Source: Okamejei kenojei
Taxonomy: Eukaryota
DNA length: 64,000 bases
Direction: 5' to 3'
NCBI GenBank assembly: GCA_035221665.1
Contig: CM069147.1
Coordinates: 20,398,001 to 20,462,000, forward strand
Under the pieces are notes generated by a model that did not search any database, was not told where the DNA came from, and saw only the letters and a list, made by a program, of their open reading frames with translations. The translations under genes and the position numbers were made by a program. The first letter of the stretch is position 1. Every line of letters starts with the position of its first letter. Below are positions 28,607 to 52,087 of the stretch, piece by piece.

Positions 28607-31290
28607 CAGTGGCTTGCAAAAGTTTTCATACCCCTTGAACTTTTCCACATTTTGTCACGTTACAACCACAAAATGTAAATGTATTTTATTGGGGTTTTAT
28701 GTGATAGACCAACACAAAGTGGCATATAATTGTGAAGTGGAAGGAAAATGATACATGGTTTTCAAGTATTTTTTACAAATAAAATACTGAAAAGTGAGGC
28801 GTGCAAAAGTATTCAGCCCCCTTTACTCTGATACCCATAAATAAAATCCAGTGCAACCAATTGGCTTCAGAAGTTACCTAATTAGTAAATAGAGTCCACT
28901 TGTGTGTAATCTAATCTCAGTATAAATACAGCTGTTCTGTGAAGGCCTCAGAGGTTTGTTAGAGAACATTAGTGAACAAACAGCATCATGAAGCCCAAGG
29001 AACACACCAGACAGGTCAGGGATAAAGTTGTGTAGAAGTTTAAAGCAGGGTTAGGTTATAAAAAATATCCCAAGCTATGAACATCTTATGGAGCACTGTT
29101 CAATCCATCATCCGAAAATGGAAAGAGTATGGCACAACTGCAAACCTACCAAGACATTCTTTGTAATTCTGTGATTTTTACATTGTAAAAAACCTTGATC
29201 CATCATTGAGGGTTTAAATGTAGGGTTGTTTACAAAATGGGAAGTAGTGGCAAATTATCCAATTTTAGTGTCTTTTCTAATTGTTTCCAAATGTGTATTC
29301 CACTATTATGGGGTTTTCACTATAGGTTTTTTTTTTTTTGCTTAATTTCGTAATAGCAAATAAGATCGAACCAATTTCAAAAGGTAAACAGTCTTCCTTT
29401 TCCATTTTTAACCCATCTGGTTGTTGGTGCAGTTCTACCAACCAAAAATTCATATTTTTAATGTTAACTGCCCAAAAATAGAGCATAAAATTCGGTAGGG
29501 CTAAACCTCCATTTATTTTTGATTTACATAATTGCTTTTTATTTATTCTGTGATTCTTATAATCCCAGATAAAATTAGTGACTATAGAGTCAACCTTTTT
29601 AAAAAAAGTTTTTGGGAGATATATCGGGATTGATTGAAAGAGGTACAATAATTGCGGGAGAAAAATCATTTTTATTGCATTAATTCTACCAAACATAAGA
29701 ATATTTTATATTGGAAAGAATTACCTATGTGTAATTTGTTCAATAAAGGCGGAAAGTTAAGTTTAAATAAAGAAGTACATGTCTTTGTTACATAAATTCC
29801 AAGATATTTAAATTTTTCATTTACTATTTTGAATGGAAATTGTTGTAATATATGTTGATTACTTTCCATTATTGGCATGATTTCACTTTTATTCCAATTA
29901 ATTCTGTATCCTGAAAACGAGCCATATTGAGTTAAATTTAATAAGTTTGGGATACTAACTTCAGGTTTTGTAATGTAGATGAATACATCGTCTGCATATG
30001 AAGACATTTTATTCTCAGTATCTTTAGTATTATACCCATATATTTCAGGATGGGACCTCACGATTTCTGCTAGTGGCTCTATTGCGAGTGTGAATAATAG
30101 CGGAGTTAACAGACATCCTTGTCTACAGCCTCAAGATAAATTAAATTTAGCTGATAACATTTAATTTGTCAATATTCTAGCTGTTGGATTAGTATATAAA
30201 AGTTTTAGCCATGTACTAAACTTCTTGCCCAATTGAAAATTTTTCATAACCAAAAATAAATAGGGCGATTCCACCTGGTCGAATGCTTTCTCATCATCTA
30301 ACAAAATAATTGCTAGATCTTCATTAGTACTTCTCTTTGAATATATAATATTGAATAATCGTCTCAGGTTATATGAAGAGAGGCTTTATCATAAGAGCCT
30401 CTATGGAAGAGTGGCAAGAAGAAAGCCATTGTTGAAACAAAGCCATAAGAAGTCCCGTTTGCAGTTTGCCACAAGCCATGTGGGGGGCACAGCAAACATA
30501 TGGAGGAAGGTGCTCTGGTCTGATAAGACCAAAATTGAAGTTTTTGGCCTAAATGCAAAACTCTATGTGTGGCGGAAAACTAACACTGCACATCACCCTG
30601 AACACACCATCCCCACTGTGAAACATGGTGGTGGCAGCATCATGCTGTGGGGATGCTTTTCTTCAGCAGGGACAGGGAAGCTGGTCAGAGTTGATGGGAA
30701 GATGGATGCAGCCAAATACAGGACAATCTTGGAAGAAAACCTATTACAGTCTGCAAAAGACTTGAGACTGGGGCGTAGGTTCACGACCCTAAACATACAG
30801 TCAGAGCTACAATGGAATAGTTTAGATCAAAGCATATTCATGTGTTAGAATGGCCCAGTCAAAGTCCAGACCTAAATCCAATTGAGAATCTCTGGCAAGA
30901 CTTGAAAATTGCTGTTCACAGATGCTCTCCATCCAATCTGACTGAGCTTGAGCTATTTTGAAAAGAAGAATGGGCAAAAATTTCAGTCTCGAGATGTGCA
31001 AAGCTGGTAGAGACATACGCCAAAAGACTTGCAGCTGTAATTGCAACGAAAGGTGGTTCTACAAAGTATTGACTCAGGGGGGCAGAATACTTTTGCATGC
31101 CACACTTTTCAGTTTTTTAGTTGTAATAAAATTTGGAAACCATGTATCATTTTCCTTCCACTTCACAATTATGCACCACTTTGTGTTGGTCTATTACATA
31201 AAATCCCAATAAAATACATTTACGTGTGTGGTTGTAACGTGACAAAATGTGGAAAAGTTCAAGGGGTATGGAAACTTTTGCAAGCCACTG
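28607..31290 (+). mobile_element. Tc1 transposon with long (~200 bp) TIRs and TA TSD, nested in the DIRS RT
   Basis: ta|cagtggcttgcaaaag ... cttttgcaagccactg|ta; transposase [28 protein letters not shown]; excision restores RRYLKFSW. Confidence 0.95.
29157..30397 (-). mobile_element. L1/Tx1-clade ORF2 internal fragment inside the Tc1
   Basis: SYADD, FSGYRINWNKSE, GRINAIKMIFLPQLLYLFQSIP, GGLALPNF. Confidence 0.85.
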
Positions 31291-34022
31291 TATTTGAAGT
31301 TTAGCTGGATGAGTCAGTTACGGCAATTCAAAGCACTGTCTAATGGATTAACCTCAGCTCCTAGATTGTTTACCAAATTGTTAAAACCAATTCTAGGGCT
31401 GCTCCGAGCTCAGGATCATGTTGTAATGGCCTATTTAGTTGATATCTTAATTGTAGGAAATACCCGGGATGCAGCTGAATTATCTGTTCGTATTAGCTCG
31501 AGGTGCAGATACATTCGCTTAAAGGGAAAACGGAGACATGCAGCATAAGACAAAAACATTCGACCCGACTTGCCCACGCCGACAATATGCCTATCTAGGT
31601 GAATGCCATTTTCCTACCCATATTCTTCTATCCCTTTCCTATTCACGCATTTTCCCAAATGCTTTTTAAACTGTGTGATTAGACCTGCCCCTAACTTATC
31701 CAGGCAGATTACTCCGTGTACTCACCAAATATATCCATTTTCGTTTTAAACGTTCACCTTCTAGTTTTAGACTCCCCTACACTTTGCAAAAAGACTTTTA
31801 ACTTTCTTCCCTGTCTATGAACCTCATAATTTCATAAACTTCTATGGCGTCACCATGCCCCACAAGAACATGTAGATAACATGCATGAAAATACACACAT
31901 TTGCACAAACACATATTCGCATCAATTTCCTTTTTAAATAAGTTATCTTTCAAATTATAAATAATGTCCACGCTGTTTTGCAGAAATATATGATTTGGAC
32001 ACTGGGGTAAAATCAGTCGTTCTGGTGGGGTGGGAGATTGCAACCTTCATGTGGTCCACCCTGTTTCGAGTAATGCAATTAACCCGATGTGTGCAAACGT
32101 TTAGATCAAATAGGACAAGTTAATCCACAACTTTAGGCTGTGCACGCCATACGCAAGAAGAAGAAGTCGTTCTGGTAAGTGGTTGAAAAGAAAATTTAGG
32201 TTTTAAAGCACATCCTGCATGATGAAAGAGACAGAATGGTTCGGGAGAAGAAATTGGACAGTTAAGGATCAATAAGATTAGCAGCAGCGAATTGCAGGCG
32301 TTTTGGATTGTCCGAAGACGATATTGAGAAGCAGCTAGAGTTGTGAGCACGAATAATGATACAAGGATAGGGATGAGTGAAGCAAAGCAGGTATTTGAAA
32401 GCATGGATGACATATGTAAGGTTGGTATCTTGCTGGGCCAGATGTCGTACAGTCAGCCAGCAACCACGTGATGGGTAAACGTGATGGCCAAGGACATGTA
32501 TACATAGCATACGTTCACAAATATCTACATACGCCCATCGCTGCGATATGTTAGGCAAGGTAACTTCATATTTTTCCAGCACCTCTGCTCTGGGCGCTTC
32601 ACCTCCTGAACAAAGTGATAAGAGATCCAATGGTTTTAATTCCACCCTGGCTGTTTCAAAGGGCCATTTTTCCCAATTACCGACGATCACGATAATGCTC
32701 CAGCACCTTTCGAATGGGTCACTCCGTTTAAGACAATCGGGCCTGCTCTTTCTCCCCCATATATTTTGCTCACGCCTCCTTGAAATACTCGAAATGGTAG
32801 GTCTTTCCATCTCACATTCTGGGACCGAAATAATCTTCCCCGATGAAGCAGCGATTCCCTTGCATTTATTCCGATCTAGCGTATCGTATTCAGTTTTCGC
32901 AACATAACCTCCTTCAGATTGAAGAAACCAGACGTGGATTGGATGATTTGCCTTCGGGAATCAATGTAACATTTTCAACTTTAGATAATTTGCTTTATCT
33001 TCCGGTCACTTAAGAATCGGTGTTGATTGTGTCTGCCACAGCTCCTTCATTCCACTTCTGTCCCAGAGGCAGAATCAAATTAGCATCAATTACATGGCCA
33101 TGGTATGTTCATCAAATCTAACCATGATTTTATTAGAGAATTCTCTTTTATTCCACCCATCATCCTCTTCAAAATCTTGGTATTCAATAGGCTAACACCT
33201 TTCTCTATTTCACAGTTCTGATCAGGAATCCTCGTCTGAAATATTAAACTTTTTTCATCCAAAGTTGCAGTCTGACCTTTTTATCTATCCAACTGTTTTC
33301 ATTTCCAATTTTTACTTCGTTTTGCCTCATTTTCTATTTCCCATGTCTCATGAAAGGTTATAGGCGAACTATTAATTTATTAGTTTGCAAAATGTAGAAT
33401 ATTACAACATTCGTGATGTATAGAGTCAAGTAGAATTTATTGATATATGCAAAATTTTGTAGGGTACAGGACCAAATTAAAGTTTGTATCCAGCAGCACC
33501 ACAGGCACATTCACTCAAACAATCTTAATCTTAGGCCCCTTTCGGTCGTGGCTGACCATGGGTGTCTCCAGGGTACTATATGGAGGAAACCTGTGCGTAA
33601 CTTTGTTTAACGTGGGGAGACTGATGCACAGACAGCCACCCCACGATCCTTGACAGATCAGGGCCAGGATCCAGTGTCATGGAGTCACTAAACAATTTAC
33701 ACAAACCAATTATGGAATGAGGTTCACAAACAATTAATGTGTTAATACAGAGCCTTCGTGAAAGAACAGCTAAAGCACGATGCTGTTTTTCTGAAGCGAT
33801 CTGAGCTGATTAAAACAATCAGGGCTTATTTTTACTTACCATCAGATACCCTCTACTTTTCAAAGTCGTTCTTCATCATGCTGGTTGCAACCGAAGAGCC
33901 CCGTGCAAGAGCCTTCACCTTTTTTTAATATGACCTCATTGCTGACCATCATCCAAACTTTGTAAACTTGCTTTGCCCTCATACCTGTAAACAGATCTGT
34001 TGATATTGGATTTTAAAGTAAA

Positions 34023-37000
34023 CTATACCAAGTGGGACACGTTGGGTCCCTTTCCGCGATATTCCATCACTCACCCATAGGCGCCAACTGCGCACACGCA
34101 TCTGACATTTTTAAACTTCAAAACTTGTAATAAATAAGATCAATGTGAATGCATCTGACTCTCCCTCTCCAGTCTCCTATTCCTCCATTATCCTCACTCT
34201 CCCCAGCCTCCACCAACCCTCCTCTGCTTCCTCTCCTCACCCCCTCTCTCCCCGCCTCTTTCTTCCCCCTCCCCTCCTCCATTACTTTACCATCCATCTT
34301 CCTACCCCAATCCTCCTCCCTTCCCCCTCAGCCCCGGCACTACCTCGCCCTCCTCTTCACCCTCTACTTTCCTCTACTTTTCTCTCTCCTCCTCCTCTCC
34401 CCACTCCCTCCCTCACTTATCCCTCCGTCTCCTTTCCCCTACCCTCAGTCATTCCCTCCCTCCATAAACCCTCTCCTCTCCCTCCCCCCCCCCCTCCTCC
34501 CCTCTATCCCCTCCTCCCCAACTCCTCAATTACCGTACTCTCCCTCCTCACCTCCCCAGGATCTCGATGTAAACCCAGGCCGGCCCCGTTTTGTCCACCA
34601 TGTTGGTGACAAAGTTGTATTTGAGGTAGGGGCTGCGGAGGGAAGGGGGGGTGGGGGTGGGGAGTGGCCTGGAGCCGGGGGAGGGGGAGGGAGAGGCCGA
34701 AGCTGTGGCCTACCCCTTGCCCCGGGTACCACTCCTCTCACTCCCCACGGGCCCAGAGCAGCACCAGTGCCGCCTCCAGACCCAGACCCAGCCCCGTGTC
34801 CGCGAGTCGGCCTCTCCCTCGGACCCGCCGCAGTGTGGATACTGGACCCATTGCGCACGCGTGGGGCTGACAGGCCTCCCTCAACTGGGCTGGCAGATTA
34901 TAACTTTTTTAAAGTTTTAAATGTCAATCACTTGTAAAATATACCATCAATCTGAAGGAAACATAGAAACATAGAAAATAGGTGCAGTAGGCCATTCGAC
35001 CCTTTGAGCCTGCACCGCCATTCAATATGATCATGGCTGATCATCCAACTCAGTATCCTGTACCTGCCTTCTCTCCATACCCCCTGATCCCTTCAGCCAC
35101 AAGGTCTACATCTAACTCCCTCTTAAATATAGCCAATGAACTGGCCTCAACTACTTTCTGTGGCAGAGAATTCCACAGATTCACCACTCTCTGTGTGAAA
35201 AAAAAATTCTCATCTCGGTCCTAAAAGACTTCCCCCTTATCCTTAAAGTGCGACCCCTTGTTCTGGACTTCCCCAACATCGGGAACAATCTTCCTGCATC
35301 TAGCCCGTCCAACCCCTTAAGAATGTTGTAAGTTTCTATAAGATCCCCCCTCAATCTTCTAAATTCTAGTGAGTAGAAGCCGAGTCTATCCAGTCTTTCT
35401 TCACACGAAAGTCCTGCCATCCCAGGAATCAGTCTGGTGAACTTTCTCTGTGCTCCCTCTATGGCAAGAATTTCTTTCCTCAGATTAGGAGACCAAAACT
35501 GTACGCAATACTCCAGGTGTGGTTTCATCAAGGCCCTGTACAACTACATTAGAACCTCCCTGCTCCTATACTTAAATCCTTTTGCTATGAATGCTAACAT
35601 ACCATTTGCTTTCTTCACTGCCTGCTGCACCTGCATGCCTACTTTCAATGACTGGTACCATGACACCCATGTCTCGTTGCATCTCCCCTTTTCCTAATCG
35701 GCCACCATTCAGATAACAACTTACTTTCCTGTTCTTGCCACCAAAGTGGATAACCTCACATTTATTCACATTATACTGCATCTGTCATGCATTTGCCCAC
35801 TCACCCAACCTATCCAAGTCACCTTGCAGCCTCCTAGCATCCTCCTCACTGCTAACACTGCCCCCCTGCTTCGTGTCATCTGCAAACTTGAAGATGTTAC
35901 ATTCAATTCCCTTGTCCAAATCATTAATATATATTGTAAATAGCTGGGGTCCCAGCACTGAGCCTTGCGATACCCCACTAGTCACTGTCTGCCATTCTGA
36001 AAAGGACCTGTTTACTCCTACCCTTTGCTTCCTGTCTGCCAGCCAGTTCTCTATCCACATCAATACTGAACCCCCAATACCGTGTGCTTTACGTTTGCAC
36101 ACTAATCTCTTATGTGGGAACTTGTCGAAAGCCTTCTGAATGTCCAGATACAACACATCCACTGGTTCTCCCTTATCCACTCTACTAGTTTCATCCTCGA
36201 AAAATTCTATAAGATTTGTCAGACATGATTCACCTTTCATAAACCCATGCTGACTTTGTCCAATGATTTCACCACTTTCCAAATGTGCTGCTATCCCATC
36301 TTTAGTAACTGCCTCTAGCATTTTCTCCACTACCCATGTTAGACTAACTGGTCTGTAATTCCCCGTTTTCTCTCTCTCTCCCTCCCTTTTTAAAAAGCGG
36401 TGTTACATTAGGCACCCTCCAATCCTCAGGAACTACTCCAGAATCTAAAGAGTTTTGAAAAATTATCACTAATGCAGCCACTATTTCTGGGGCTACTTCC
36501 TTAAGCACTCTGGGTTGCAACCTATTTGGCCCTGGGGATTTATCGGTCTTTAATCCATTCAATTTACCTAACGCTACTTCCCGACCAACCTGGATTTCAC
36601 TCAGTTCCACCATCTCATTTGACCCCCAGTTCCCTGCTATTTCCAGCAGATTACTTATGTCTTCCTTAGTGAAGACAGAACCAAATGAGTTATTCAATTG
36701 GTCTGCCATGTCCTTGTTCCCCATGATCAATTCACCTGTTTCTGACTGCAAGGGACCTACATTTGTTTTAACTAATCTTTTTCTCTTCACATATCTATAA
36801 AAGCTTTTGCAGTCAGTTTTTATGTTCCCTGCCAGTTTTCTTTCATAATCTATTTTCCCTTTCCTAATTAAGCCCTTTGTCCACCTCTGCTGCACCCCCA
36901 ACACAACCCGTTCCACCAACACAATATTCCAGCACTAACCCATAGCCCCTAACTGCACAGATGCGGCTCATTTCTCCAAATCCCACAGCATCCTCCTGTG

Positions 37001-37990
37001 TGGGAGGGGAGGAGGGGATTTGCGGAGGTGGGGTGGGAGGGGAGGAGGGGAGGGCGTGTGTGTGCGTGCAGGGAGATGTACGGTGGGAGAGGGAGGTGTG
37101 GTGGAAAGGGGGATGTGGGGTAGGGGGGTGTGTGGCGGTGGTGTATGGGGTGGGAGAGGAGTGTGTATCTGGGTGGGAGGGGAGTGGGAGGGGGAGGAGG
37201 TTGTGGGGTGGGTGTTGTGGGGGGAGGGCGGTGTCAGGGGTGGGTGTGGGCAGGTTGTGGGTGGAGGGGGTTGTGTGGTTGGGGTGGGTTGTGGGGGGAG
37301 TGGTTGTGTGGGCGGGGGGGGGGGGGGGGGGGGGTTGAGGGGGGGGGGAGATCTTGGAGAAAAGTCGAGGAAGACCATAGGGGAGACGGGGCATCACGGG
37401 GGAGGGGGGCAGCAGCCAGCGAGGGGGACCAGAGTGGAAGAAGCTGGAGCTGGCGATGCGATGGGGACTCACAGCGGGCCCTGGTTGCTGGTCGTTCTCC
37501 TCTGCCGGGATCAGAGTCTCCGTTTTCCATTTGGAGACATCGACCAGATCTCCATCTCCGCACCGGGCTGGGCCACTTCTGGTCCCTGCGAAAATTGTGT
37601 CTGGTTCAAGACCTCCAACGGCCATCCAGAGCGTCCTTCAGATCCAGTAAAGGAGCAGGAAGGTGCGGACTGTCCCATGGAGTGACAGGAGAAGAGACAA
37701 ATCTGTGCGGCGTTGACTGGCAGGAGAGGAGATGCATCTGCGCACGCACGGTTTTAAGATTTTGAAACCTCGCTAACTTTTACATTATGGCACCGATCGG
37801 AACCTAACTTGGTGCACTCGCAGTACAAGAGAACGGGGAATGAGCTGGCGAAAAATCGTAGCGCTATCCGTACCGTTTTTGCACAAATAGAAAAACCGCG
37901 CAAACCAGAAGATAACAAGTTCGGAGTTTTAGAGATAGATAGATGGATGGATAGATGGATGGATGGATGGATGGAAAGAAAGAAAGATAA
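34023..37990 (-). mobile_element. Non-autonomous Helitron-like element(s) with low-complexity interior, interrupted by CR1
   Basis: Subterminal hairpin GGGAC..GTCCC (34034-34050) near a decayed CTAG end; (TCTA/TCCA)n at the other end. Confidence 0.45.
34961..36892 (-). mobile_element. 5'-truncated CR1 LINE
   Basis: SGVSQGSVLGP, FADDTK; (TTTCTATG)n tail. Confidence 0.93.
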
Positions 37991-38849
37991 GAACAAGTGG
38001 TTCACCAACACAATATCACACCACTCACCCGTTTCAGTTGTGATGCCAGGGATCCCCGTTGTCACGCGAGTCACGGCATCCCCTCCACCAACTGCGCCTC
38101 GCCATCCCTCTTCCTACCCCTATCCTCCTCTTTTCCCCCTCATCCATCTCTCCATCCCTCTCCTTTCTGACATTGATTATTTTCGATTGATCTTGTGAGA
38201 TAATGAGATAATGGTGAGATACAGTACAGAAAAGTTACTTTGTAATGACAACATTTTCTTTTCATCTTGGAGGTACCTTTTCGAAGTACCATCCACGAAC
38301 AAACTGTAAATGACCATGGATTCAGTTCAGTACCACAATGTGAATCATAAAGGTCGTGCATAAATTATACAGTGTAATTATTGAGGAGCTGCGAGCATGT
38401 TTTATAATTGGGCTATACACTGTTGGAGCGGTTCTTTTCGGGGTGACAAATACACCTAATTATAACATTGCCTTGAGTTATTTTAAAATCTGGCTGTTAC
38501 TTTTTATATGTTAATATATTTTATATATTACAGCTACAGACGCTAATGATTTTTTTACAATGGCATATAATTTGGACCATACCTATAGGTTTTGTAAAAC
38601 ACCAAAACATTGATTTCATTTTTTGTTTATTAAACAGAACATGCACAATTTAAATATGCAAGACGCTGTTGATTCAGGACTTGGTGAGACATTATGCAGT
38701 TGGGTTCGCCAGGCATTCAAATTAAAGATGGAATGTCAACACCTGAAACCAGAACCTTGTTCCTCCAACCAGCCACCAGCTTCACCCACTTGCATCCGAA
38801 GCCATTGCGCAGAAAAATTAAAAACGAATAAAAAAACGAATCGGCTATA

Positions 38850-39899
38850 AGTAGGTATGTTATAAACGTACTTTTAGCGGCGCTGTAGTTCTGTCACTGG
38901 CCGTGTGCGCGACTTTGGCGCCTTTGAGGGGGTGGGGGCGGGGTTAAAATGCGGTTTTCCCTTGCCTTCCGGAATTATATTTTCTCAGAGTGCAAGATTA
39001 TTCTAGAGATTCGTTCCGACTGCCGGTAAGTGACTTTTTTTTTTTTAATCGCCTGAGTATTTCAGCGCTGGAGTAAAATAAAAAATATCTTCTAATGCCG
39101 TGAACGCCGACAACGGGGACTGATTTTACGTAGGGGACAGGTAAAGGAAATCAGTTTATTTTTACATATAAACTTGTTTGTTAAGATGACCTTAATCCAA
39201 ATTTCATGTTGTGAAATGGTGATTGATTCCCCATACGAATCAGCAGTATTTTTTCTGCCGATATGGGGTTTAAATTCACCACAACCACAACGTTCCAATC
39301 CATCGCATTCAATAAAATCCCACTCGCAAGTTGATTTAAATGGCCATTAATTTACGGGCATTAAACACTAAATTCCTTCAATTTGGCCTATAAATTCATA
39401 ACAATGAGATTTAAAAATCATGTTATATTGTGAACTCTTGTGTGAATGTTATTTGGACACTTAGGCTTTTTAATTTTTTTTAAATATTTTCTTAAGAAAT
39501 GGATAGATGTTTAGATCTAGTAATTGAATTTTGTAATTAGCTACAATTGGGTAACTAACTAATTATATGCTTTTATTTCAGGTCATCCAAGTAAGATTGT
39601 TTCATATTTGTTTCAGAATGCTTCAATCTATAATAACTGAAAATTTCTTTTAGTTCTCTTAATTTTTAAGAAAGGTATGGGCTTTTGACTGTCCTCGATC
39701 ACAACTTTTGTGTTAAGTCAATGAAAAAGCAATAGAGAACACGATGCTAATTTCCAAGTATGCAAATGGCCAACACTTTTTTAATACTGAAGATATGAAA
39801 GTGAATTAGGTGTCAAATTAAACTTCTTTTTTGCTTTATCTGATGGGATAAATTGCAGGCTTGATTTTTTAAATCTCAAAATGTTGTAACATTGCTACT
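38850..39899. mobile_element. Non-autonomous DNA transposon
   Basis: Imperfect TIRs agtaggtatgttataa / ttgtaacattgctact with flanking ATA duplication. Confidence 0.55.
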
Positions 39900-40242
39900 A
39901 TAAGCAATTAAATTTGTTCCTGGTGAATAATATCGAACATTCAGAAAAGGGACGATTTTTGGTTCAGATACGTTATCGCCCTTTTTCGGCTGCCTTTGCG
40001 AAGTTTTGATGAATTAAAGATACAACATGGGAATAGGTCCGTTGGCCCACCGAGTCCACGCGGACCACGAATCACCCGTTTATGTTATCCCGTTGACTTC
40101 GTGTTGATTTCCTGCACGCTCGCGGTAATTCATAGAGGCCAATTAACTTACAACCCTGCAGGTTTTGTGGATCTGGGAGGAAACAGAGCACACACGTGGC
40201 TACTGGGAGAACGTTGTAAACTCCAGACAGATAACACCATAA

Positions 40243-40657
40243 TGCCCCTGTCCCACTTAGGAAACCTGAACGGAAACCTCTGGTGACCTTGCGCCCCACC
40301 CAAGGTGTCCATGAGTCGCCAGAGGTGTTGGTCACTTGCCTGGAAAGCCACCACTGAAGCGCGAGCTGCATCTACTGACCAAAGATCCCACAGGATCTTT
40401 GCTACTGACCACACACACACACACACACACCGTGAAGGTGGGGGCCAAGGACAGCGGAGGAATGCTGTATGTGTGGTGAAGAGGAAGGTAAACGGCTGCC
40501 ACAAAGCACGGAACATAGAAGAAGCCTCAACTACGCGGAAACCACTTTTTACCGTTAGGGAGAGTGAACAAAACCTCCGGGAACCTCACGGAAACCTTGG
40601 GTGAGGCGCAAGGTCTCCAGAGATTTCCGTTCAGGTTTCCTAAGTGGGACAGGGGCA
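40243..40657. mobile_element. PIF/Harbinger-like MITE
   Basis: Long near-perfect TIRs tgcccctgtcccacttaggaaacctgaacggaaa...; TAA TSD. Confidence 0.85.
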
Positions 40658-41424
40658 TAACTCAGGATCGAACCCGGTCACTGGCGCAGTGAGGTATCTG
40701 CAACTCTACCAGCTGCGCTACTGTTGCTGTAGGTTGCTATCTGTAGGTCGTGGAATATGAAATATGGAGGTTCCAGTACTAATGTTGTTGCTTATCCACT
40801 TTACATTTTTTTTGTCTTAATTGATTACATTTAACAATGCAAAATGTCACGGAACGATTTGTTACTTTTCTCGGTGTAAACACATTTCCAATTGTTTGAT
40901 TTTAGTCGAAGCAACTTCTAGCGACGAGTTAGAATTTGGAGTACAGTCATCATAAAGATAGTGGTAATTAGAGGAGACTTTCTCTCCTGGCTTGCTCAAC
41001 TACAAACAAATATAGTTAACGTTTCATGCGACAATGTTCAAGTTGTATACGACTCTATGACCTTGAAGAAAATTAAGTTCTTGATTCCATTACCATTATA
41101 CATCAGTATGTTATTTATTTTTTGTCGTTCCCGTTTATTATACCAATGTATCGATTCAAATAAATGATAAAGAGTCACACAGAAATGCTTCAGTTACGGG
41201 ATTTCTGTACTGTATGGTATTTTGCTCTCTGCAAGTATTTGTTAGCAAGCAAAGGTGCAGTAATATTGAGGTGAGGCTGAAAAGGAGAAGTAGTAAAAAG
41301 CACAGTGGAAATTATCACTTGCATTTTGCACGGATCTACTGCATTGGTGTGCTGCAGTGACTTTGCTAAGCAATGATAAGACAAACAGCTATCTTTTTTT
41401 CATGGGTAAGCCAATCAATGATCA

Positions 41425-42639
41425 GGAAAAGCTGCAGGGAGGTATGTCATCTTGTCATCTCCGCCTCGTTTGGTCTGTGAAAGAAATGCAATATTGCCTG
41501 TTAGTACATTGTCCAGTGATCAAGGAAAGCAATCAATTTTTCAACACAATTGGAATGTAGTCAACAATTATAATTTCCAAATTGCAGATAACGTGTAAGA
41601 GTTTATGTTCATATTATTTATCCAGTCTTCTGCGGATCCTTTCATGGTCCAACACAACAAATTCGTGGTAACACAAATATCCATTAAAAATATTCCCATT
41701 TTATTCTCTCTGCATTGCCATCAACACTTCGCTCACTCCTAGATTATACCACTTGCCTAAACATGGGGCATTTTAAATCTCTAATTAGCCTACCACCCCT
41801 CACGTGATTCGGGATGTGCAAAGTATTCGGAGCACCTCAGGAAACCTGCGAGGACGCACCAAATAACGTTCAACCTTCACACTGACAGCACCGAAAGCCA
41901 GGATTTGTTTTACCTTGTGTATAGACAAGGAGAAGCCATAATATCTCTGTCACTGTGTGATCTTCGTAGATAAAATGGAAACACTGTCAAGAGTCAAGAG
42001 TGCTTCTCATATGTCCCAGATAGAACTAAGATATTCTTAGCTGCAGCAGCACAACAGAATAAGTAAACATAGTACTCTTTAAATAATATAGTAAACCTCT
42101 CTGAGGTCCTGTGCCATCCTGTCACCTGTCCCCTTTGAGGTGGATTTCCTAAATGCAGATTTCACTCTGTTCCTCCTGTCATTGTCTGAATTTCTCATAT
42201 TTCCTGGCACTGAATATGACCGCTGGGTGTAAAAACCTGTTGCCGGTTACCTTGTCTGTTTCTTAATTTTGCATTTATATTGGACAGCATTCTACGTTAA
42301 AATCCGAGAACAAAGATAAAGGTAAATTTGCAGTGGGATGTATCGTGCAGCTGAATTTGTTGTCTGCTCTATCTGGTTTCATGCCACAATTCAAAATTCG
42401 TCATTACGCGCTTTTCCGTAGTCGTACAAGATCAAAATTTTGTTCACGTAACTTCATAATCAACAAAAATAAATCCCTTTAACCTGATGTTTACTTGGAA
42501 TGCATTTCGTGCAAACACTCTGCCTTTACCTCGACATGAACAACATGCTCTTCGTTGCATCGATATTTGGTTTTTTTTTTCCTCTCACTCAAGTTTAGTG
42601 TTGCTAGGCAGAGGCAGCTTCACTTGACGTTTCCCGAAC
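41425..42639 (-). pseudogene. Orphaned, decayed ITIM exons of copy B (42530-42639 and ~41425-41474)
   Basis: Homologous to A cyt2/cyt3; TAC->TAG by 1-nt deletion, Tyr->His, 2-nt deletion after the LTY-equivalent, last exon truncated. Confidence 0.88.
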
Positions 42640-42643
42640 ATAT

Positions 42644-45600
42644 TGTAGTGGCCATTTGGGCTTGTTTTGTGTGTCATTAATGATGGCATGTGTCTTTAAA
42701 TTTTAGACTGCCAGTTATATTGTGGATGGGATTTATGACGTATTTTAGGGCGTGTTTGGAGCTGGGTTTCTTGCGCAGAAGCTTAGTTTTTAGTTTAGTT
42801 TTGGACCAGCATGGGGGAGGAGGCATATGCTTTGACCATGTGAAGTGTAACGGAGACACGAGGTGTTTTCTAACCTTTAAAGCAATATGCTGGAGTTCGA
42901 TGAAGATTATAGTGTGTGAGACGGAAGAAGCTGGGATGTACCTTATTGTTTTTAATCAACAATAAATATTCTATTGATCAAAAGACTGTGTTGTGAAGAT
43001 GTATCTGTGAAGAAGCTCTGAAGGTCTCTGACGGAGAGCGCGCATGAGTATAACATTCTCCTTAATTATAGAAACATAGAAACATAGAAATTAGGTGCAG
43101 GAGCAGGCCATTCGGCCCTTCGAGCCTGCACCGCCATTCAATATGATCATGGCTATTCATCCACCTCAGTATCCTGTACCTGCCTTCTCTCCATACCCCC
43201 TGATCCCTTCAGCCACAAGGGCCACATCCAACTCCCTCTTAAATATGGCCAACGAACTGGCCTCAACTACCTTCTGTGGCAGAGAATTCCACAGATTCAC
43301 GACTCTCTCTGTGAAAAACGATTTTCTCATCTCGGTCCTAAAAGACTTCCCCATTATCCTTAAACTGTGACCCCTTGTCCTGGACTTCCCCAACATCGGG
43401 AACAATCTTCCTGCATCTAGCCTGTCCAACCCCTTAAGAATTTTGTAAGTCTCTATGAGATCACCCCTCAATCAGCGAGTACAAGCCAAGTCTATCCATA
43501 TGTTCTTCATATGGAAGTCGAGCCATCCCAGAAATCAGTCTGGTGAACCTTCTCTGTACTCCCTCTATGGCAAGAATGTCTTTCCTCAGGTTAGGAGACC
43601 AAAACTGTACGCAATACTCCAGGTGTGGCCTCACCAAGACCCTGTACAACTGCAGTAGAACCTCCCTGGTCTTGTACTCAAATCCTTTTGTGATGAATGC
43701 CAACATACCATTTGCTTTCTTCACAGCCTGCTGCACCTGCATGCCTACTTTCAATGACTGGTGTACCATGACACCCAGGTCTCGCTGTATCTCCCCTTTT
43801 CCTAATCGGTCACCATTCAAATAATAGTCTACCTTCCTATTTTTGCCACCAAAGTGGATAACCTCACATTTATCCACATTATACTGCATCTGCCATGCAT
43901 TTGCCCACTCACCCAGTCTATCCAAGTCATCCTGCAGCCTCCTAGCATCCTCCTCACAGCTAACACTGCCCCCAGCTTCGTGTCATCCGCAAACTTCGAG
44001 ATGTTGCATTTAATTCCCTCGTCCAAATCATGAATGTATATTGTAAATAGCTGGGGTCCCAGCACTGAGCCTTGCGGCACCCCACTAGTCACTGTCTGCC
44101 ATCCTGAAAAGGACCTGTTCACTCCTACTCTTTGCTTCCTGTCTGCCAGCCAGTTCTCTATCCACATCAATACTGAACCACCAATACCGTGTGCTTTAAG
44201 TTTGTTTACCAACCTCTTGTGTGGGTCCTTGTCGAAAGCCTTCTGAAAGTCCAGATACAACACATCCACTGCTTCTCCCTTATCCACTCTACTAGTTACA
44301 TCCTCAAAAAATTCAATAAGATCCGTCACACATGATTTACCCTTGGTAAATCCATGCTGACTTTGTCCAATGATTTCACCACTTTCCAAATGCGCTGCTA
44401 TCCCATCTTTAATAATTGACTCTAGCAGTTTCCCCACTACCGATGTTAGACTAACTGGTCTGTAATTCCCCGTTTTCTCTCTCCCTCCCTTTCTAAAAAG
44501 TGGGGTTACATTATCTACCCTCCAATCCTCAGGAACTATTCCAGAATCTAAAGAGTTTTGAAAAATTATCACTAAGGCATCTGCTATTTCTGGGGCTACT
44601 TCCTTAAGTACCCTGGGATGCAGCCTATCTGGCCCTGGGGATTTATCAGCCTTTAATCCATTCAATTTACATAACACCACTTTCTGGCTAACCTGGATTT
44701 CACTCATTTCCTCCATCTCATTTGACCCGCGATCCCCTGCTATTTCCGCCAAATTATTTATGTCTTCCTTAGTGAAGACAGAACCAAAGTAGTTATTCAA
44801 TTGGCATGCCATGTCCTTGTTCCCCATGATCAATTCACCCGTTTCTGACTGCAAGGGACCTACATTTGTTTTAACTAATCTTTTGCGCTTTACATATCGA
44901 TAAAAACCTTTGCAGTCAGTTTTTATGTTTCCTGCCAGTTTTCTTTCATACTCCATTTTCCCTTTCCTAATTAAGCCCTTTGTCCTCCTCTGTTGGTCTC
45001 TGAATTTCTCCCAGTCCTCTTGTAGGCTGCTTTTTCTGGCTAGTTTGTACGCTTCATCTTTTTCTTTGATACTATCCCTGATTTCCTCGTTATCCACGGA
45101 TGCGCCACCTTCCCTGATTTATTCTTTTGCCATACTGGGATGAACAATTGTTGTAGTTCATCCATGCAGTCTTTAAATTCCTTCCATTGCATATCCACCG
45201 TCAACCCTTCAAGAATCAATTGCAGTCGATCTTGGCCAATTCACTTCACATACCCTCAAAGTTACCTTTCTTTAAATTCAGGACCCGTGTTTCTGAATTA
45301 GCAATGTCACTCTCCATCCTAATGAAGAACTCAACCATATTATGGTCACTCTTGCCCAAGGGGCCACGTACAACAAGGCTGCTAACTAACCCTTCCTCAT
45401 TACTCAATATCCAGTCTAGAATAGCCTGCTCTCTCGTTGGTTTCTCCACATGCTGGTTTAGAAAAACTATCCCACATACATTCCAAGAAATACTCTTCCT
45501 CAGCACCCCTGCCAATTTGATTCACCCAATCTATATGTAGATTGAAGTCACCCATTATAACGGTTTTACCTTTGTTGCACGCATTTCTAATTTCCTGTTT

Positions 45601-47345
45601 GATGCCATCCCCAACTCCACTACTACTATTAGGAGGCCTGTACACAACTCCCACTAGCGTTTTCTGCCCCTTGGTGTTTCGCAGCTCCACCCATATCGAT
45701 TCCACATCCTCCAAGCTAATGTAATTCCTTTATATTGCATTAATCTCCGCTCTAACCAGCAACGCTACCCCACCTCCTTTTCCTCTCTGTCTATCCTTCC
45801 TGAATATTGAATATCCCTGGATGTTCAGCTCCCAGCCTTGGTCCCTCTGGAGCCATGTCTCCGTGATCCCAACTATATCATAATTATTAATAGCTATCTG
45901 CACATTCAACTCATCCACCTTATTACGAATGCTCCTTGCATTGAGACACAAAGCCTTCAGGCTTGTTTTTACAACACTCTTGGCCCTTTTACAATGATGT
46001 TGAAAAGTGGCTCTTTTAGATTTTTGCCCTGGATTTGTTTTCCTGCCACTTTTCACCTTGCTACCTATTGCTCCTATCCTCATTTTACACCCCTCTGTCT
46101 CTCTGCTCACACATTAAGAAACCCTCCACTTCTTATTCTCCGTTTGTTATTTATTTCTTCTTTCCTCCCTACGTGTTGCATCTGGCTGCTTCTCTTCTCT
46201 GCCTCCTGCCTCACAAACAGACTACTTGCCTTCTCTATTTGAGTCCCTCCCCCCAACCGATCTAGTTTAAAGTCTTCCCAGTAGCCTTTGCAAATCTCCC
46301 CGCCAGGATATTGGTTCCCCTCGGGTTCAAGTGCAACCCATCCTTTTTGTACAGGTCGCACCTTCCCCAAAAGAGGTCCCAATGATCAGGAAACTTGAAT
46401 CTCTGCGCTCTGCACCAGTCCTTTAGCCATGCATTGATCCTCCACCTTGCTCCATTCCTACTCTCACTGTCGCGTGGTACAGGCAGTAATCCCGAGATTG
46501 TAACCTTTGCGGTCCTTCTCCTTAACACTCTTCCTAACTCCCTAAATTCTCCTTTCAGGACCTCCTCTCTTTTTCTACCTATGTCATTGGTACCTATATG
46601 TACCACGACCTCTGGCTCTTCTCCCTCCCATTTCAAGATATCTTGGACACGTTCAGTCACATCCCGGATCCTGCCACCAGGGAGGCAAACTACCATCTGG
46701 GTCTCCTGACTGCGTCCACAGAATCGCCTATCTGACCCCCTAACTATAGAGTCCCCTATTACTGCTGACCTCCTCTTCTTTTCCTTACCCTTCTGAGCAA
46801 CAGGGCCGGTCATTGTACCGGAGGCCCGGTTGCTGTTGCTACCCCCAGGTAGGCTGTGCCCCCCAACAGTACTCAAACAGGAGTACTTATTGCCAAGGTG
46901 TACAGCCATCGGGGTACTCTCTAGTCCCTGCCTCTGCCCCATGCCTCTCCTAACCGTGACCCACTTTTCTGCCTCCTGTGGTTTTGGAGTGACCACCTGT
47001 CTGTAGCTCCTCTCTCTGACTTCTTCACTCTCCCTGACCAGACGGAGGTCATCGAGATGCTGCTCCAGGTACCGAATACGGTCCATTTGGAGCGCCATCT
47101 TGACGCACCTGGCGCAGATGTGGACGTCTGGAGAGCTATCTGACTGCATGACCTCCCACATCTGACATCCAGAACAGTAGACTGCCCTGGCACTCATCCT
47201 CCCCCTTACCCTGGATACAATACAATATACAATACAATACAAAGCAAGGATTTTAGCTGATTATGTAGATTATGTAAGGATTATGTAGTCCATTTAGCGG
47301 CTAGAGGGAGTAATCTCTTGAACGATATAAAAACCTGCCGCTACA
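42644..47345 (+). mobile_element. Solo LTR (~0.5 kb excluding the nested CR1) inserted in the copy B splice acceptor
   Basis: TGTAGTGG...CCGCTACA termini, AATAAA at 42961, TSD catat (42639-42643) / cctat (47346-47350) matching the single cctat in A (19738-19742). Confidence 0.8.
43068..47245 (-). mobile_element. Near full-length CR1 LINE nested in the solo LTR (open ORF1 with SGNH esterase; ORF2 frameshifted)
   Basis: ORF1 46262-47242 GDSIVR/HIGTND/DGLHL; APE motifs NARS, ETW, GDFN, SDH; RT FADD; (TTTCTATG)n tail. Confidence 0.95.
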
Positions 47346-50300
47346 CCTATTAGAAAGTGATACTCAACACAGTTAGCAGAGGGTCTGATGTAGTTCTTTA
47401 AAGAGTGAGTCTGAAACATAAACATACAGAATGATTGCAAAAAAGGGGCACGATACCATTTGAACTGCATTCAATTACATTTCTCAAAATGTCATTCCCG
47501 AGAGGATTCAAAGTGCCAGTGTTCAACTTGTTTATTAATATTGTAGCTTGCGATTAATTTGAAAAATCTCTCTTCCAAATGCGATCCATTTCTCACTTCC
47601 CGCCACCTTATTCCGTCTCCGTTATCGCCGTTTCCGGCTTCCCCATAGATTTCATCAGCGATAGCAGGGCCCTCTGTATATCCCCGGCAACCTGGCTAAT
47701 TTGAGGACTTGCTAGTGGGACGAGTTTGTCGTCTGCCCTTATGCACTTACATGTACTTTCATTCTTAGGTCGCAATTTATTGTAGCGAAGTAACCGAGCA
47801 ATCCGCATCACTTTGGGGTACAAGGGGAGTAGAGCATCCGGCGGACAAGCACACAAGAATAAGCTGCAAATCACACATTCTTGGAGATTAGGATTGAACC
47901 CGATCAGGACGGAACTGTGAGTGCACCCCTTCCAATTTTAGAGGCGACAGGCAAAATGGTTTCCTTCTGCGCTGCAATGTTCTAAAATTATATGGAATTA
48001 AACTGATATATTCTCTGCTGATCGTATAATTTCTGTACTCGTCCATCCCTCTTGCAAACAAGAACAATAGCTTCACCTACCGGTTGTACGCTATGACACG
48101 CTTCCACGGAGTTTGCATTAATTCCTACATGGAAAAAAAAGAAATCTCGAATAACATTTTAATGTCAGGAAAATGTAAGTTACGCATTAGATTATAATCA
48201 CATCTACTGCCTATGGACCCTTGAAGGCAGGCGACAATCCCGTATACTATCGGATTACCACCGCCACAATGTAATGTGTTGTTCATTATACCTTCATATA
48301 TACAATCCACGTTAGATCTGCACAACCGGAGGAAGCGAGGGTCTAAACCAAATAACTCATGCTTCAAATTTTGACGTTAAAGCTAATCAACACGCTATTA
48401 ATATAGATGTTTGAAAAACACACACTCGATGGATGATTGAATAATTCGAAAGGGCAGGGGAAATAATTGTAGTTTAACTTACAACTAATAACTAGTATTG
48501 CTTTGGCTTCTTGTTTCAATGATTCTCAGAATGCACCAACCGCTTTTCTATCAACGGTTGTATGAAATAGAAAATGATGCAAGGTTCTTACCTCGTTGTG
48601 CCTTTAATGCGAATCTTGTCAAAATTATAAGCAGAACTACAAATGATAGTCCGCCCACGACCCATCGGATAATTAGAGTTTTGTCCGTGGTTTCTGGATA
48701 TGGCGAAAAATGAGAACAGTGAAACATACATACACACACAGGGACCGGGAGATAAGAAGGCAGAGCAACCGTTCAATATTTTCTGTACAAATAATTTATG
48801 ACTGCCCCATGGCACGCATTGTACGGTAATGGCGAATTTATAGAACAGATCACATTATACGGTGGCTCTTTGCAGAGGTTTGGTTATTAAGTTGAGATGA
48901 CTGTTCAATTTCATGTTTACAAAACTACGCCCGGTAGTTTGACAACAGTTTAAAAAGTCAGAATGCATTCTATATTCTGGATCTGCCACCGCAGGTTCCA
49001 GTAAATATGAAAAGGAACTGGATTTTTGTGTTTGCACAACTATCGAATTGTATTAGAAAATAGACACAAAAGTGCTGGAGTAATTCAGCGGGACATGCAA
49101 CAACTCTAGAGAGAGGAATGGGAGACGTTTCTGATCGAGACCCTTGTTCAGATTGTATTTCTCGGCAGGCTGGAATCTGCGTTAAATGCCTCCCGGCTTA
49201 CCTTGCTCGACAATGTAGCTGAAACTGGCAGGGACTGTAAGAGTTACGTGTGATACCAGGCAGGTGTAAACAGTTTTGCCTGGAGCAGGCTGCGTATCGC
49301 GCAAAAAACTGGAAGCCTCGTAAAGTCCATCCGCTGTTCTGTTTCTCACGGTTTCAATGCCGGTCAAAATTTCCACGTAGTTTCTTTGCCAGATGACTTT
49401 TAATTCCTCCGGATAAAACGCAGCCGTTTTACACACGAGTTGCGGCACACTTCCTTCAATAGCGACAATTGTCAATGGAGTTGGGGGAGCTGGAACAAAA
49501 AAAAGCGTGAAAAAATATATTTTATTTCAATGAACATAATTGTCGCTGCCTCATGTTATCCATGTGGTTGTTTATTGAGTTTATACTTTTGTTAAAAATT
49601 ATTTTATGGATGTTATCATGGTAAGTAGTGCAATTGAAACAAAGCACGAACTGCTGCCTCGCGGGGTTCGCGCGATTATTAAGAAATAATGTGACACGGG
49701 TATTGCTTGGTAAGATTCCGTGACAGTACTTTGGTGAATTCAAAATCACGCGTTTCTTCTGAACATTTGCTCTTTCTTATCTGCAGATGGTAGTTACAGA
49801 AAATGGACTGCACTGAATGGCAGAAGTACATCGGCGATTTTCTCGAAAAGCACGCAAGGATGAACCGAGCAAACTCTGTTTCTCATTCCATATATGTTAT
49901 TAACAAGACATTAACGAGCATGGTTCCATTTGTGCTGGAGCCACTGTCAGTAATATTTAGCGAGCGGGAGAGTTAATTGTACTTTATTTTGTCAATGCAT
50001 TGCGTAATCTCATTAATGTCGTTTGTGTTTAAGCATTTTTACTTTCCTTAATTGATGTAATAACATCTTAGTGTACTATTATTATTAATTAATAAAGCGA
50101 TATCACCCTTTACTCCCTGTGCCATATAAATGATTACCAAGCAAACCTTTATTCCATACGATGATATAACCGTGGATCTATTTTAAATAAGAAGTAATAT
50201 CGGAGAATTGCAGTTGTAGTTCCTTTTTTTCTTTTTTCATTCCACGAACTTTCCTGGAGACTGTGAAAGTGTAAACAAAATTATCCACCTCAAAACTGTG

Positions 50301-51279
50301 AGATCCATTTCTCCTCCGCTTTTAGTTGATGGGAAAGTTTGTCGGGTGGAAAATTTTGGAACTTTCTGGAAATTCAGAGTAACGTGAATTTGGATGGGCA
50401 TTTGAAAAGCTGGAGGTCAAAATATAATTGGACCTGCCAATTTACAAGAGCCACAACCATGGTAATGTCACTATGCCTTTGTAAGATAACCCGGAGTAAT
50501 AAAAAAACAAAACTATAACAGAACTCTCGCTGCACGTATATTGACCGACGGATAGAATATTTTTCAGTTTGTTCCCTTTATTTCAGATTTCCATCTCGGA
50601 AGTAACCATTAAAATTATAGAACTAGATAAGATTAATATTTCCTCCACCAGCAAGCTTTAGTTACATTGCAACAGATGAACATATCCCACTACCCGTAAC
50701 AAAGAGACTTACTTAACACAATTAGCTGGGAGCCAGTTCCATTACCGATAATGTGCAGTTGGTGTTTCACTCGACAGTAATATATCCCGGCGTCTGCGAC
50801 ACTCACATTCAGCAAAGTAAATGTACTGCTTCCCTTGTCTACTTTGAATTGTTTTCTGTCGTCCGGTTCCATAAATGTCTTCTCGCCCTCTCTCCACCAA
50901 GAAACGTCAGCGGTTTCTTTTAATATTGGAAATTTGCAGAACATGGACACATGGCTGCCCCTTGAGGCCCTCAGGAATGCGGGGAATTGTTCCACTTTGC
51001 TCGAAGTTGCTTTTGTCAGAGGCAGAAATAAGTAAATATGATGAAAACAGTTGCACATACAGCACCAAGAAAAAGAGCCAATGGATACACAAATACAAAA
51101 CAATTAGGAAATAATGGTTAGCCAATTGCAGAAACGTTGTAAATGTAATTTGCTGTGGCATACTAGTGTAAAATATTGACAAATATGATTTGCTTAGCGA
51201 AATCGGTTCAGAAACGAAGCATACCTTGACAAACCAAAGCAAGAAGACCCATGTACCGAACCATTGCTTTCACCGGCAT
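47341..51279 (-). CDS. Receptor copy B: activating-type VJ-C1-TM(Arg) IgSF receptor with short Tyr-free tail, ~263 aa
   Basis: Exons 51225-51279, 50713-51009, 49202-49489, 48592-48693, 48081-48124, 47341-47346 (GTG TAG); total 792 nt, all phases consistent. Confidence 0.87.
48081..48124 (-). CDS. Copy B cytoplasmic exon 1
   Basis: GINANSVEACHSVQP, phase 1-0. Confidence 0.8.
48592..48693 (-). CDS. Copy B TM exon with Arg
   Basis: ETTDKTLIIRWVVGGLSFVVLLIILTRFALKAQR; CGA at 48667-48665. Confidence 0.9.
49202..49489 (-). CDS. Copy B Ig C1-set exon
   Basis: Same C1 motifs as A; 9 nt shorter, in frame. Confidence 0.93.
50713..51009 (-). CDS. Copy B Ig V-set exon with J-like motif
   Basis: 297 nt, phase 1-1; DAGIYYCRVKHQLHIIGNGTGSQLIVL. 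Confidence 0.93.
51225..51279 (-). CDS. Copy B leader exon
   Basis: MPVKAMVRYMGLLALVCQ|gtatgc, phase 1; the start Met is uncertain. Confidence 0.7.

Positions 51280-52016: not shown

Positions 52017-52087
<71 letters not shown>

What the first reader, a model, noticed from the sequence alone, without database searches (positions are those of the whole stretch)
42639..47350. A solo LTR inserted exactly in a splice acceptor removed B's ITIM tail
Seen: the 5-mer cctat spanning A's cyt2 acceptor (19738-19742) is duplicated around a TGTAG...CTACA element in B. On the minus strand the upstream copy keeps the acceptor (TAG|G) and reads into the LTR as GTG TAG (Val, stop; 47346-47341). The downstream copy mutated ATAGG->ATATG, which destroys the AG that could have restored the ITIM exon. 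Inference: a retroelement supplied the stop that turned an inhibitory receptor into a tailless one, so the birth of an activating receptor can be traced to the nucleotide.
Basis: partly seen in the sequence, partly recalled or inferred. Interest (0 to 1): 0.9.

Follow-up and report, generated by a model that had tools for sequence, protein, structure and literature searches.

The report
Retrotransposon stop in tailless immune receptor
In a cartilaginous-fish immune gene cluster, a leftover retrotransposon end sits exactly on a splice site and probably supplies the stop codon of a likely activating receptor, but it is one of several hits that removed the inhibitory tail and probably not the first.

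Summary
The insertion is real. It is a solo LTR of a dispersed ~485-bp BEL/Pao-type family, with a 5-bp target duplication on B's cyt2 acceptor, later split by a young 4.2-kb LINE. If cyt1 splices to 47346, B is an open 263-aa V-C1-TM receptor ending Val-stop, with a derived TM Arg. Its ectodomain is ~99% identical to the ITIM gene A.

The causal claim is too simple. (1) B is the upstream half of a tandem duplication whose breakpoint lies inside the last ITIM exon (41428-41431), so B lost its distal motif and 3' end at birth. (2) Relatives skip cyt2 in frame, so the LTR alone need not remove the LTYASL ITIM; a separate 2-bp deletion does. (3) Relic cyt2 has a stop exactly on the proximal ITIM Tyr, as in activating KIR. 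Clocks put the duplication at ~0.075 and the LTR at ~0.05 (0.03-0.08) substitutions per site, so the order is unresolved.

An Arg at this position with a short tail recurs in 14 of 82 relatives, including a catshark pair. No transcript evidence was obtained. A donor in the LINE could cause NMD, and A is frameshifted as assembled. New variant of a known kind.

The parts
42639..42643 (.). Target-site duplicate, gene-downstream copy (catat, one mismatch; AG lost on the minus strand)
42644..43067 (+). Solo LTR, 5' arm (BEL/Pao-type family, antisense to gene B); a change at 42954 found in 0 of 29 other copies gives ATTAAA on B's strand at 42956-42951
43068..47260 (-). Young CR1/L2-type LINE nested in the LTR (GDSL ORF1, endonuclease, RT; about 3% from nearest copies); carries a consensus-like donor at 47209 and AATAAA at 46155 and 45123
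47261..47279 (.). Filler at the LINE 5' junction: tandem copies of the target sequence (boundaries approximate)
47280..47345 (+). Solo LTR, 3' arm; its terminal CTACA read on the minus strand supplies TG TAG
47341..47346 (-). Predicted new last coding codons of B: GTG TAG (Val, stop)
   Evidence: splice predicted, not observed
47346..47350 (.). Target-site duplicate, gene-upstream copy (cctat); keeps the native cyt2 acceptor
48081..48124 (-). B cytoplasmic exon 1 (weak donor, identical to A's)
48592..48693 (-). B transmembrane exon; derived Gly>Arg codon at 48667-48665, inside a 24-nt island of 5 A/B differences
49202..49489 (-). B C1-set exon
50713..51009 (-). B V-set exon with J-like end
51225..51279 (-). 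B leader exon, open
42530..42639 (-). B relic cyt2: 1-bp deletion puts TAG on the proximal ITIM Tyr (42606-42604); second Tyr changed to His
41428..41474 (-). B relic last exon: acceptor intact, 2-bp deletion at the ITIM Tyr, cut off at the duplication breakpoint (4-bp microhomology, 41431-41428)
26198..41431 (.). Second copy of the intergenic block; colinear with 61939 onward into L035 (the 3' flank of upstream gene D) at about 8% difference; AATAAA at 41139 and 41119 could end a cyt2-skipping isoform
18469..23700 (-). Gene A, the ITIM-tailed partner (cyt2 19628-19738, last exon 18606-18469); four 1-bp frame-affecting indels relative to B in the leader and at the V-exon end, as assembled

Best explanation
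B is the activating half of a paired V-C1 Ig receptor, and it lost its tail stepwise. Step 1 (shown by sequence): a tandem duplication with a microhomology junction inside the last exon made the upstream copy B without the distal tyrosine motif, stop and 3' UTR. Step 2 (shown, order inferred): the two remaining ITIMs were removed by several lesions, namely a stop on the proximal ITIM Tyr, a frameshift at the LTYASL core, and a solo BEL/Pao LTR that landed on the cyt2 acceptor. The LTR's TSD kept the acceptor and its terminal TGTAG supplies an immediate stop, which is probably the stop used today (inferred). Step 3 (shown, undated): B gained a TM Arg at the family's recurrent position. Step 4 (inferred from the identity gradient): recombination or gene conversion keeps the leader, V and C1 about 99% like A, fades toward the LTR, and has not overwritten the Arg island or crossed into the tail. 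Function (inferred): B sees A's ligand and signals through an FcR-gamma or CD3-zeta adaptor.
For: Junction: sequence after B's cut exon has 1 other match among 2 genome-wide, in D's 3' flank, and the whole intergenic block is colinear. Skip isoforms are annotated in P0010, P0015 and P0027. All four B isoforms I could predict lack an ITIM. Of 21 A/B substitutions in the tail exons, 16 fall on B, 3 on A and 2 are unresolved, using D as outgroup (p=0.004). That is more than expected if the exons were freed only at LTR age 0.05 (p=0.018) and fits freedom from the start (p=0.14). Identity gradient: V-C intron 0.8%, V 1.4%, C1 0.7%, TM introns 3%, cyt1-cyt2 intron 6.6%, tail 13.5%. Arg is derived against 4 paralogous TM exons. 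15 of 82 TM-bearing relatives have a basic residue within one column (13 exact); 1 of 15 against 48 of 67 have a tail of 60 aa or more (p=4e-6). A catshark pair, P0020 and P0180, is 93% identical with the same design. Two zeta/gamma-type TM exons with Asp are in this genome.
Against: No transcript shows any B splice. The LTR age interval (0.034-0.080) overlaps the tail split (0.075), so the LTR may have come almost at once. The intergenic copies differ by only 8.0% (379/4727) against 13.5% for the tail (p=3e-8), so my dating needs a later homogenisation of the intergenic block, which is assumed. The ITIM-centred position of the two indels (p about 0.01-0.02) and the TM island (p=0.009 within the exon, 0.11 anywhere) are post hoc tests. 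B lacks the NxxR motif of LRC receptors. The relatives are automatic gene models and are not independent. A is frameshifted as assembled.
Confidence: 0.5

Rival explanations
1. One reading: the LTR inserted very soon after (or on an allele before) the duplication and was the decisive event. All relic-exon lesions are neutral decay afterwards.
For: The LTR's terminal branch is 0.057, with an interval reaching 0.080. It is older than the intergenic clock of about 0.043 per lineage. Relic exons differ from A at about the intron rate (14.5% against 13.5%). Two indels in 156 nt is not an excess in number.
Against: The breakpoint in the last exon is independent of the LTR. In-frame skipping to an intact acceptor at 41474 could keep LTYASL. 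Three two-LTR elements date the family to only 0.03-0.044 per lineage. An allele-first history does not explain why only the block 3' of the LTR is deeply diverged.
Confidence: 0.22
2. The LTR is a passenger. B mRNA skips to the relic last exon (ending in a short ITIM-less peptide before AATAAA at 41139/41119) or reads through the weak cyt1 donor, so the LTR stop is seldom used.
For: The relic last-exon acceptor is intact and pyrimidine-rich (13 of 17). Poly(A) signals lie about 300 nt on. Skip and read-through models exist in relatives (P0010, P0015, P0027; P0020 and P0034 end like a cyt1 read-through).
Against: The acceptor at 47346 is as good as A's native one (same counts) and lies only 734 nt from the donor, against 6.6 kb for the relic exon.
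Confidence: 0.15
3. B is now silent or degraded. The young LINE put a donor 137 nt into the new exon, so splicing on to 41474 leaves the stop about 130 nt upstream of a junction (NMD). A younger BEL element and a LINE also sit upstream of the gene.
For: Donor at 47209; LINE about 3% from its kin; B-only insertions at 51969-52987 and 55264-61942.
Against: All five B coding exons are open with intact splice sites, while its partner and other relics in the cluster carry lesions. The Arg island has survived conversions that left the flanking introns only 3% apart.
Confidence: 0.13

Closest known systems
Activating short-tailed KIR and activating Ly49 (Abi-Rached & Parham 2005, PMC2213150; abstract and section 5 read)
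   Same: Derived from an inhibitory homologue by a TM basic residue plus a stop within the membrane-proximal ITIM; formed recurrently; the order of the two changes could not be resolved there either.
   Different: There Lys/DAP12 and point substitutions. Here Arg, a V-C1 ectodomain in a cartilaginous fish, a duplication break in the last exon, and an LTR-supplied stop.
Merohomogenised paired receptors KLRC, KLRI, KLRB, KLRA, PIR (Fossum et al. 2011, PMC3210942; abstract read); Siglec-11/16 (PMC5701461; search listing only)
   Same: Ligand-binding exons homogenised between opposing partners while signalling parts stay distinct.
   Different: Here the boundary of homogenisation coincides with a retroelement insertion.
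Retroelement-exonised truncated receptors: IL13RA1-LOR1a (PMC7617988; abstract and passages read), and transposon-exonised interferon and IL-18 receptor isoforms (PMC10515820, PMC13232192; search listing only)
   Same: A transposon-derived terminal exon cuts the cytoplasmic tail.
   Different: IL13RA1-LOR1a is a facultative isoform of one gene that acts as an antagonist. Here a duplicate gene is affected, the acceptor is the host's own (kept by the TSD), and the predicted outcome is an activating receptor.
Arg-bearing FcR-gamma-coupled LRC receptors (LILRA, NCR1, Fc-alpha-R, GPVI, OSCAR; PMC6557307; passages read)
   Same: Arg near the outer end of the TM and a short tail.
   Different: B lacks the NxxR motif and has unrelated Ig domains.
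Chondrichthyan V-C1-TM receptors auto-named SIRP-alpha-like or B7-H6-like (e.g. XP_069757173.1, XP_038661931.1, XP_038662960.1)
   Same: Same domains, exon phases and tyrosine motifs; 62% V identity to the electric-ray protein; catshark has an Arg/short-tail and ITIM pair.
   Different: The names are automatic and inconsistent; orthology to SIRP, B7-H6, NKp30 or PRARP was not tested.

Membership tests
Solo LTR of an LTR retrotransposon | TG...CA ends with short inverted repeat | tested here: met
   TGTAGTGGC / GCCGCTACA
Solo LTR of an LTR retrotransposon | 4-6 bp target-site duplication | tested here: met
   5 bp with one mismatch, empty site in A; 15 of 18 solo-type copies have 5-bp TSDs
Solo LTR of an LTR retrotransposon | Same repeat flanks longer internal elements elsewhere | tested here: met
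   3 of 6 stretches fetched for this show two LTRs about 4.4-5.1 kb apart (L072, L073, L075); L073 has an outer 5-bp TSD
BEL/Pao (Belpaoviridae-type) elements | DUF1759-type gag and Pao-type pol in the internal region | tested here: inconclusive
   DUF1759 above cut-off in L076, below in L072; weak RT hit in L075; Peptidase_A17 not seen in the 5 internal ORFs scanned. Copies are decayed; the link of DUF1759 to BEL/Pao is recalled.
CR1/L2-clade LINE | Esterase ORF1, endonuclease-RT ORF2, short tandem-repeat 3' end | tested here: met
   Lipase_GDSL_2, Exo_endo_phos_2 (below cut-off), RVT_1; 8-nt tandem tail near 43070. The clade name is recalled; no tree was built.
Activating paired Ig receptor | Near-identical ectodomain to an ITIM receptor | tested here: met
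   3 aa differences in V; C1 0.7% plus a 9-nt indel
Activating paired Ig receptor | Basic TM residue and no ITIM | tested here: met
   Derived Arg; no ITIM in any of 4 predicted isoforms
Activating paired Ig receptor | Expressed and coupled to an ITAM adaptor | not testable with these tools
   Adaptor TM exons exist; expression and binding need experiments
Activating paired Ig receptor | Functional inhibitory partner | tested here: inconclusive
   A has an intact tail but four 1-bp indels in the leader and at the V end; assembly error or real
LRC-type FcR-gamma receptors | NxxR TM motif | tested here: not met
   B reads LIIR at that place; motif per PMC6557307
SIRP family | V plus two C1 domains and orthology to SIRP-alpha | tested here: not met
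   One V and one C1 exon. SIRP-alpha (2wng) scores no better than Ig light chains against P0002. The V-C1-C1 layout of SIRP is recalled; no tree was built.

The most novel reading that the evidence does not exclude
The LTR was exapted in two ways. First, as a ready-made terminal exon: the host acceptor kept by the TSD, a stop from the element's own inverted end (which reads TGTAG in either orientation), and a poly(A) signal gained by one change about 175 nt on before the LINE arrived. This would rescue a transcript whose ITIM-Tyr stop lay 75 nt before the last junction. Second, as a fence that stops conversion from A from restoring the tail. A retroelement would then have fixed an inhibitory-to-activating switch in a shark/ray paired-receptor family that none of my eight answered searches found described.
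Probability: 0.25. Interest if true: 0.75.

Novelty: new variant of a known kind. Interest (0 to 1): 0.52.

Why it matters
How activating immune receptors arise from inhibitory ones is known mainly from mammals, where the order of 'gain a TM charge' and 'lose the ITIM' could not be resolved. Here the steps left datable marks: a duplication junction, an LTR with TSD, a nested LINE and conversion tracts. Sister species could therefore order them. The locus also shows that a large chondrichthyan V-C1 receptor family forms Arg-bearing, short-tailed members repeatedly. The outcome itself is a known pattern, and function is not shown.

Tried and rejected
RNA: no RNA holder was listed for 47346-51400. 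The three same-species runs, laid as contigs, covered essentially only repeats and none of B's exons; this says nothing about expression. They did show contigs joining the two LTR arms without the LINE, from other family copies.

L023/L024 looked like the two ends of one full-length element but are duplicates of one solo LTR with the same TSD.

I expected the sequence after B's cut exon to be a repeat; it has only one other genomic match.

False tandem assembly of two alleles was rejected: flanks differ by 8-13%, the junction is mid-exon with microhomology, and each copy has its own insertions.

The alternative cyt1 donor 4 nt on, and a candidate extra 34-nt exon in A, were rejected: a weaker score for the donor and no support for either in homologue tails.

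A loose ITIM regex gave no Arg/ITIM association (5 of 15 against 38 of 67, p=0.15), because it counts juxtamembrane hits. A tighter pattern chosen afterwards gave 1 of 15 against 34 of 67 (p=0.001).

The private ATTAAA is only a hint: 10 of 29 other copies have some antisense AATAAA/ATTAAA.

One intergenic block (37083-37983, 16.8%, probably a repeat pairing) and four shorter colinear blocks under 250 bp were left out of the 8.0% figure. The cyt3 alignment started one base late; translations were redone. The donor scores use a crude table of recalled frequencies.

No orthologue of B from a close relative was found; the closest hit, P0066, covers C1 only. No complex or fold prediction was run. 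The earlier-findings look-up was empty.
Full report
SETTING. The window is G000:C17:20398001-20462000 of a 2.76-Gb genome. All named homologues are from sharks, rays or chimaeras, so the host is inferred to be a cartilaginous fish. A and B are minus-strand genes with leader, V, C1, TM and three cytoplasmic exons. The V exon has 24 matches among 48 scored candidates, all on C17. Of the five neighbouring V-C1 genes examined, three have a detectable TM exon and none of those has the Arg; for two, no TM exon was found.

OBSERVATION. The pre-insertion site in A and both junctions in B are as described. The element is a dispersed family: 1993 candidates, 39 other scored copies at 87-90%, length 472-491 bp, and a 5-bp TSD in 15 of 18 solo-type copies. 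Five copies are preceded by a purine-rich run and six are followed by a shared internal flank. Three of six stretches fetched for the purpose hold two LTRs about 4.4-5.1 kb apart, with decayed DUF1759 and RT-like frames. This points to BEL/Pao but does not prove it. Those frames lie on the same strand as the LTR's + orientation, so B's copy is antisense to the gene. The right arm is 47280-47345. The 4.2 kb between the arms is a LINE with 39 other scored copies at 96-97% among 3963 candidates and a mean distance of 3.2% to 11 of them, so it is much younger than the LTR.

WHAT B ENCODES. Leader, V, C1, TM and cyt1 are open with canonical junctions. Splicing to 47346 gives 263 aa ending Val-stop. 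Exon phases agree with annotated relatives and paralogue D. The stop comes from the LTR's inverted end; 23 of 29 copies carry CTACA in their last 20 nt, and the other end reads TGTAG as well. Three other isoforms are possible, all without an ITIM: skipping to the relic last exon, read-through of the weak cyt1 donor, and a 137-nt internal exon ending at a donor in the LINE, which would be an NMD candidate.

WHY THE LTR IS NOT THE WHOLE STORY. First, B's last exon stops after about 45 nt. What follows (41050-41430) has one other match in the genome, about 1.5 kb past the stop of upstream gene D. From there the whole B-A intergenic block is colinear with the D-B block, and the junction has 4 bp of microhomology. 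This is a tandem duplication whose breakpoint lies inside the last ITIM exon, so B lost its distal motif and 3' end when it was made. Second, cyt2 is phase 0 at both ends and is absent from annotated isoforms P0010, P0015 and P0027. B's last-exon acceptor is intact, so blocking cyt2 need not remove LTYASL; a 2-bp deletion at that Tyr does. Third, in relic cyt2 a 1-bp deletion turns the proximal ITIM Tyr codon into TAG, and the next Tyr is His. A stop inside the proximal ITIM is the lesion reconstructed for activating KIR (PMC2213150, section 5). That both indels hit ITIM cores has a post hoc chance of about 1-2%. Both sites are TACGC in A, so a mutational bias is possible.

CLOCKS. The A/B tail block differs at 158/1173 sites (K2P 0.149, or 0.075 per lineage). 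By my reading of a 110-bp three-way intron alignment, the changes are about even between A and B. B's LTR is on average 0.103 (minimum 0.088) from 29 nearest copies, with a terminal branch of 0.057 against a median of 0.047 (interval 0.034-0.080). Two-LTR elements give 0.059-0.087 between their ends. The intergenic copies differ at 379/4727 sites in six blocks (8.0%), significantly less than the tail. I read this as an old duplication with later homogenisation of everything 5' of the LTR, while the 1.2-kb tail block, fenced by the LTR and the breakpoint, kept the old distance. That reading is an inference; an allele-first history fits the clocks but not the asymmetry around the LTR. With D as outgroup, 16 tail-exon substitutions fall on B, 3 on A and 2 are unresolved. 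This fits release from constraint at the start (p=0.14) better than at 0.05 (p=0.018). The order duplication break, then LTR and ITIM lesions (mutually unordered), then LINE is favoured but not settled.

PAIRED-RECEPTOR SIGNATURE. Differences fall from 13.5% in the tail to 6.6% in the cyt1-cyt2 intron, 3% around the TM and about 1% over V-C1, then rise again to 4-11% upstream. This is the pattern called merohomogenisation (PMC3210942, abstract). All 5 TM-exon differences lie in 24 nt around the Arg (post hoc p=0.009 within the exon, 0.11 anywhere in the 1.1 kb tested). Gly>Arg and Cys>Trp are derived in B. Among 106 family-like proteins of up to 520 aa (four isoforms of one gene dropped), 82 have a TM. 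Of these, 15 carry a basic residue within one column of B's Arg, and only 1 of those 15, against 48 of 67 others, has a tail of 60 aa or more. These are automatic models, partly related, some truncated. Catshark P0020 (Arg one position on, tail ending after cyt1) and P0180 (no Arg, full ITIM tail) are 93% identical, an independent pair of the same design. Two TM exons of the zeta/gamma adaptor family, each with Asp, are in this genome. B does not have the NxxR motif of LRC receptors (PMC6557307 passages), so the adaptor choice is inferred by analogy.

CAVEATS. No expression evidence was obtained. A carries four 1-bp indels in two-base runs within 560 bp (three in the leader, one at the V end). 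Indels are about as common as substitutions there, which suggests assembly error, but A may be a pseudogene in this haplotype.

LITERATURE. Eight answered full-text searches listed no paper on this receptor family in cartilaginous fish and none on an LTR-made activating paired receptor. The library lacks most subscription papers, and I read no supplements. Passages of PMC10751288 and PMC12227049 concern other non-rearranging VJ-C1 genes (UrIg, NKp30, PRARP). PMC3501640 passages list a SINE-made NKG2D promoter isoform. Retroelement-truncated receptor isoforms are known (PMC7617988).

VERDICT. New variant of a known kind; interest 0.52.

Noticed in passing
window 55264-61942: A second, younger BEL/Pao element (Peptidase_A17, DUF5641; LTRs 3.1% apart; 5-bp TSD ATGCC) about 4 kb upstream of B, absent from A's copy.
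   Followed up: partly
window 51969-52987 and 34958-36892: Two further CR1/L2-type fragments, each present in only one copy of the duplicated unit, 8-9% from the LINE nested in the LTR.
   Followed up: partly
window 23130-23691: Gene A has four frame-affecting 1-bp indels relative to B and to homologues; assembly error or pseudogene.
   Followed up: partly
window 9-116, 3088-3198, 3649-3681: Scattered relics of further family genes: an open TM exon with no V or C1 exon upstream in the window, a broken last exon upstream of it, and a possible V fragment.
   Followed up: no
L065:1040-1260 (G000:C17 about 20503100): Neighbouring gene E appears to have a damaged last exon (no ITIM in frame with its acceptor, early stop) without a TM Arg.
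   Followed up: no
L032:719-1476 with L033:8090-8374; L063:5723-9186: Two closely related V-C1 genes for which no TM exon was found in the fetched DNA; possibly secreted forms or distant TM exons.
   Followed up: no
P0018, P0036, P0118, P0094, P0059, P0069, P0058: A distinct Arg-bearing TM type with a conserved Asp-His at the inner end occurs in several relatives, suggesting an old activating lineage in the family beside the recurrent Gly>Arg gains.
   Followed up: partly
window 47261-47279: The LINE's 5' junction holds about three tandem copies of the target sequence, as if second-strand priming was repeated.
   Followed up: no
L031 (G000:C2:105433500-105443000): Two copies of one solo LTR with identical flanks 6.4 kb apart, 1.9% different: a local duplication.
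   Followed up: partly
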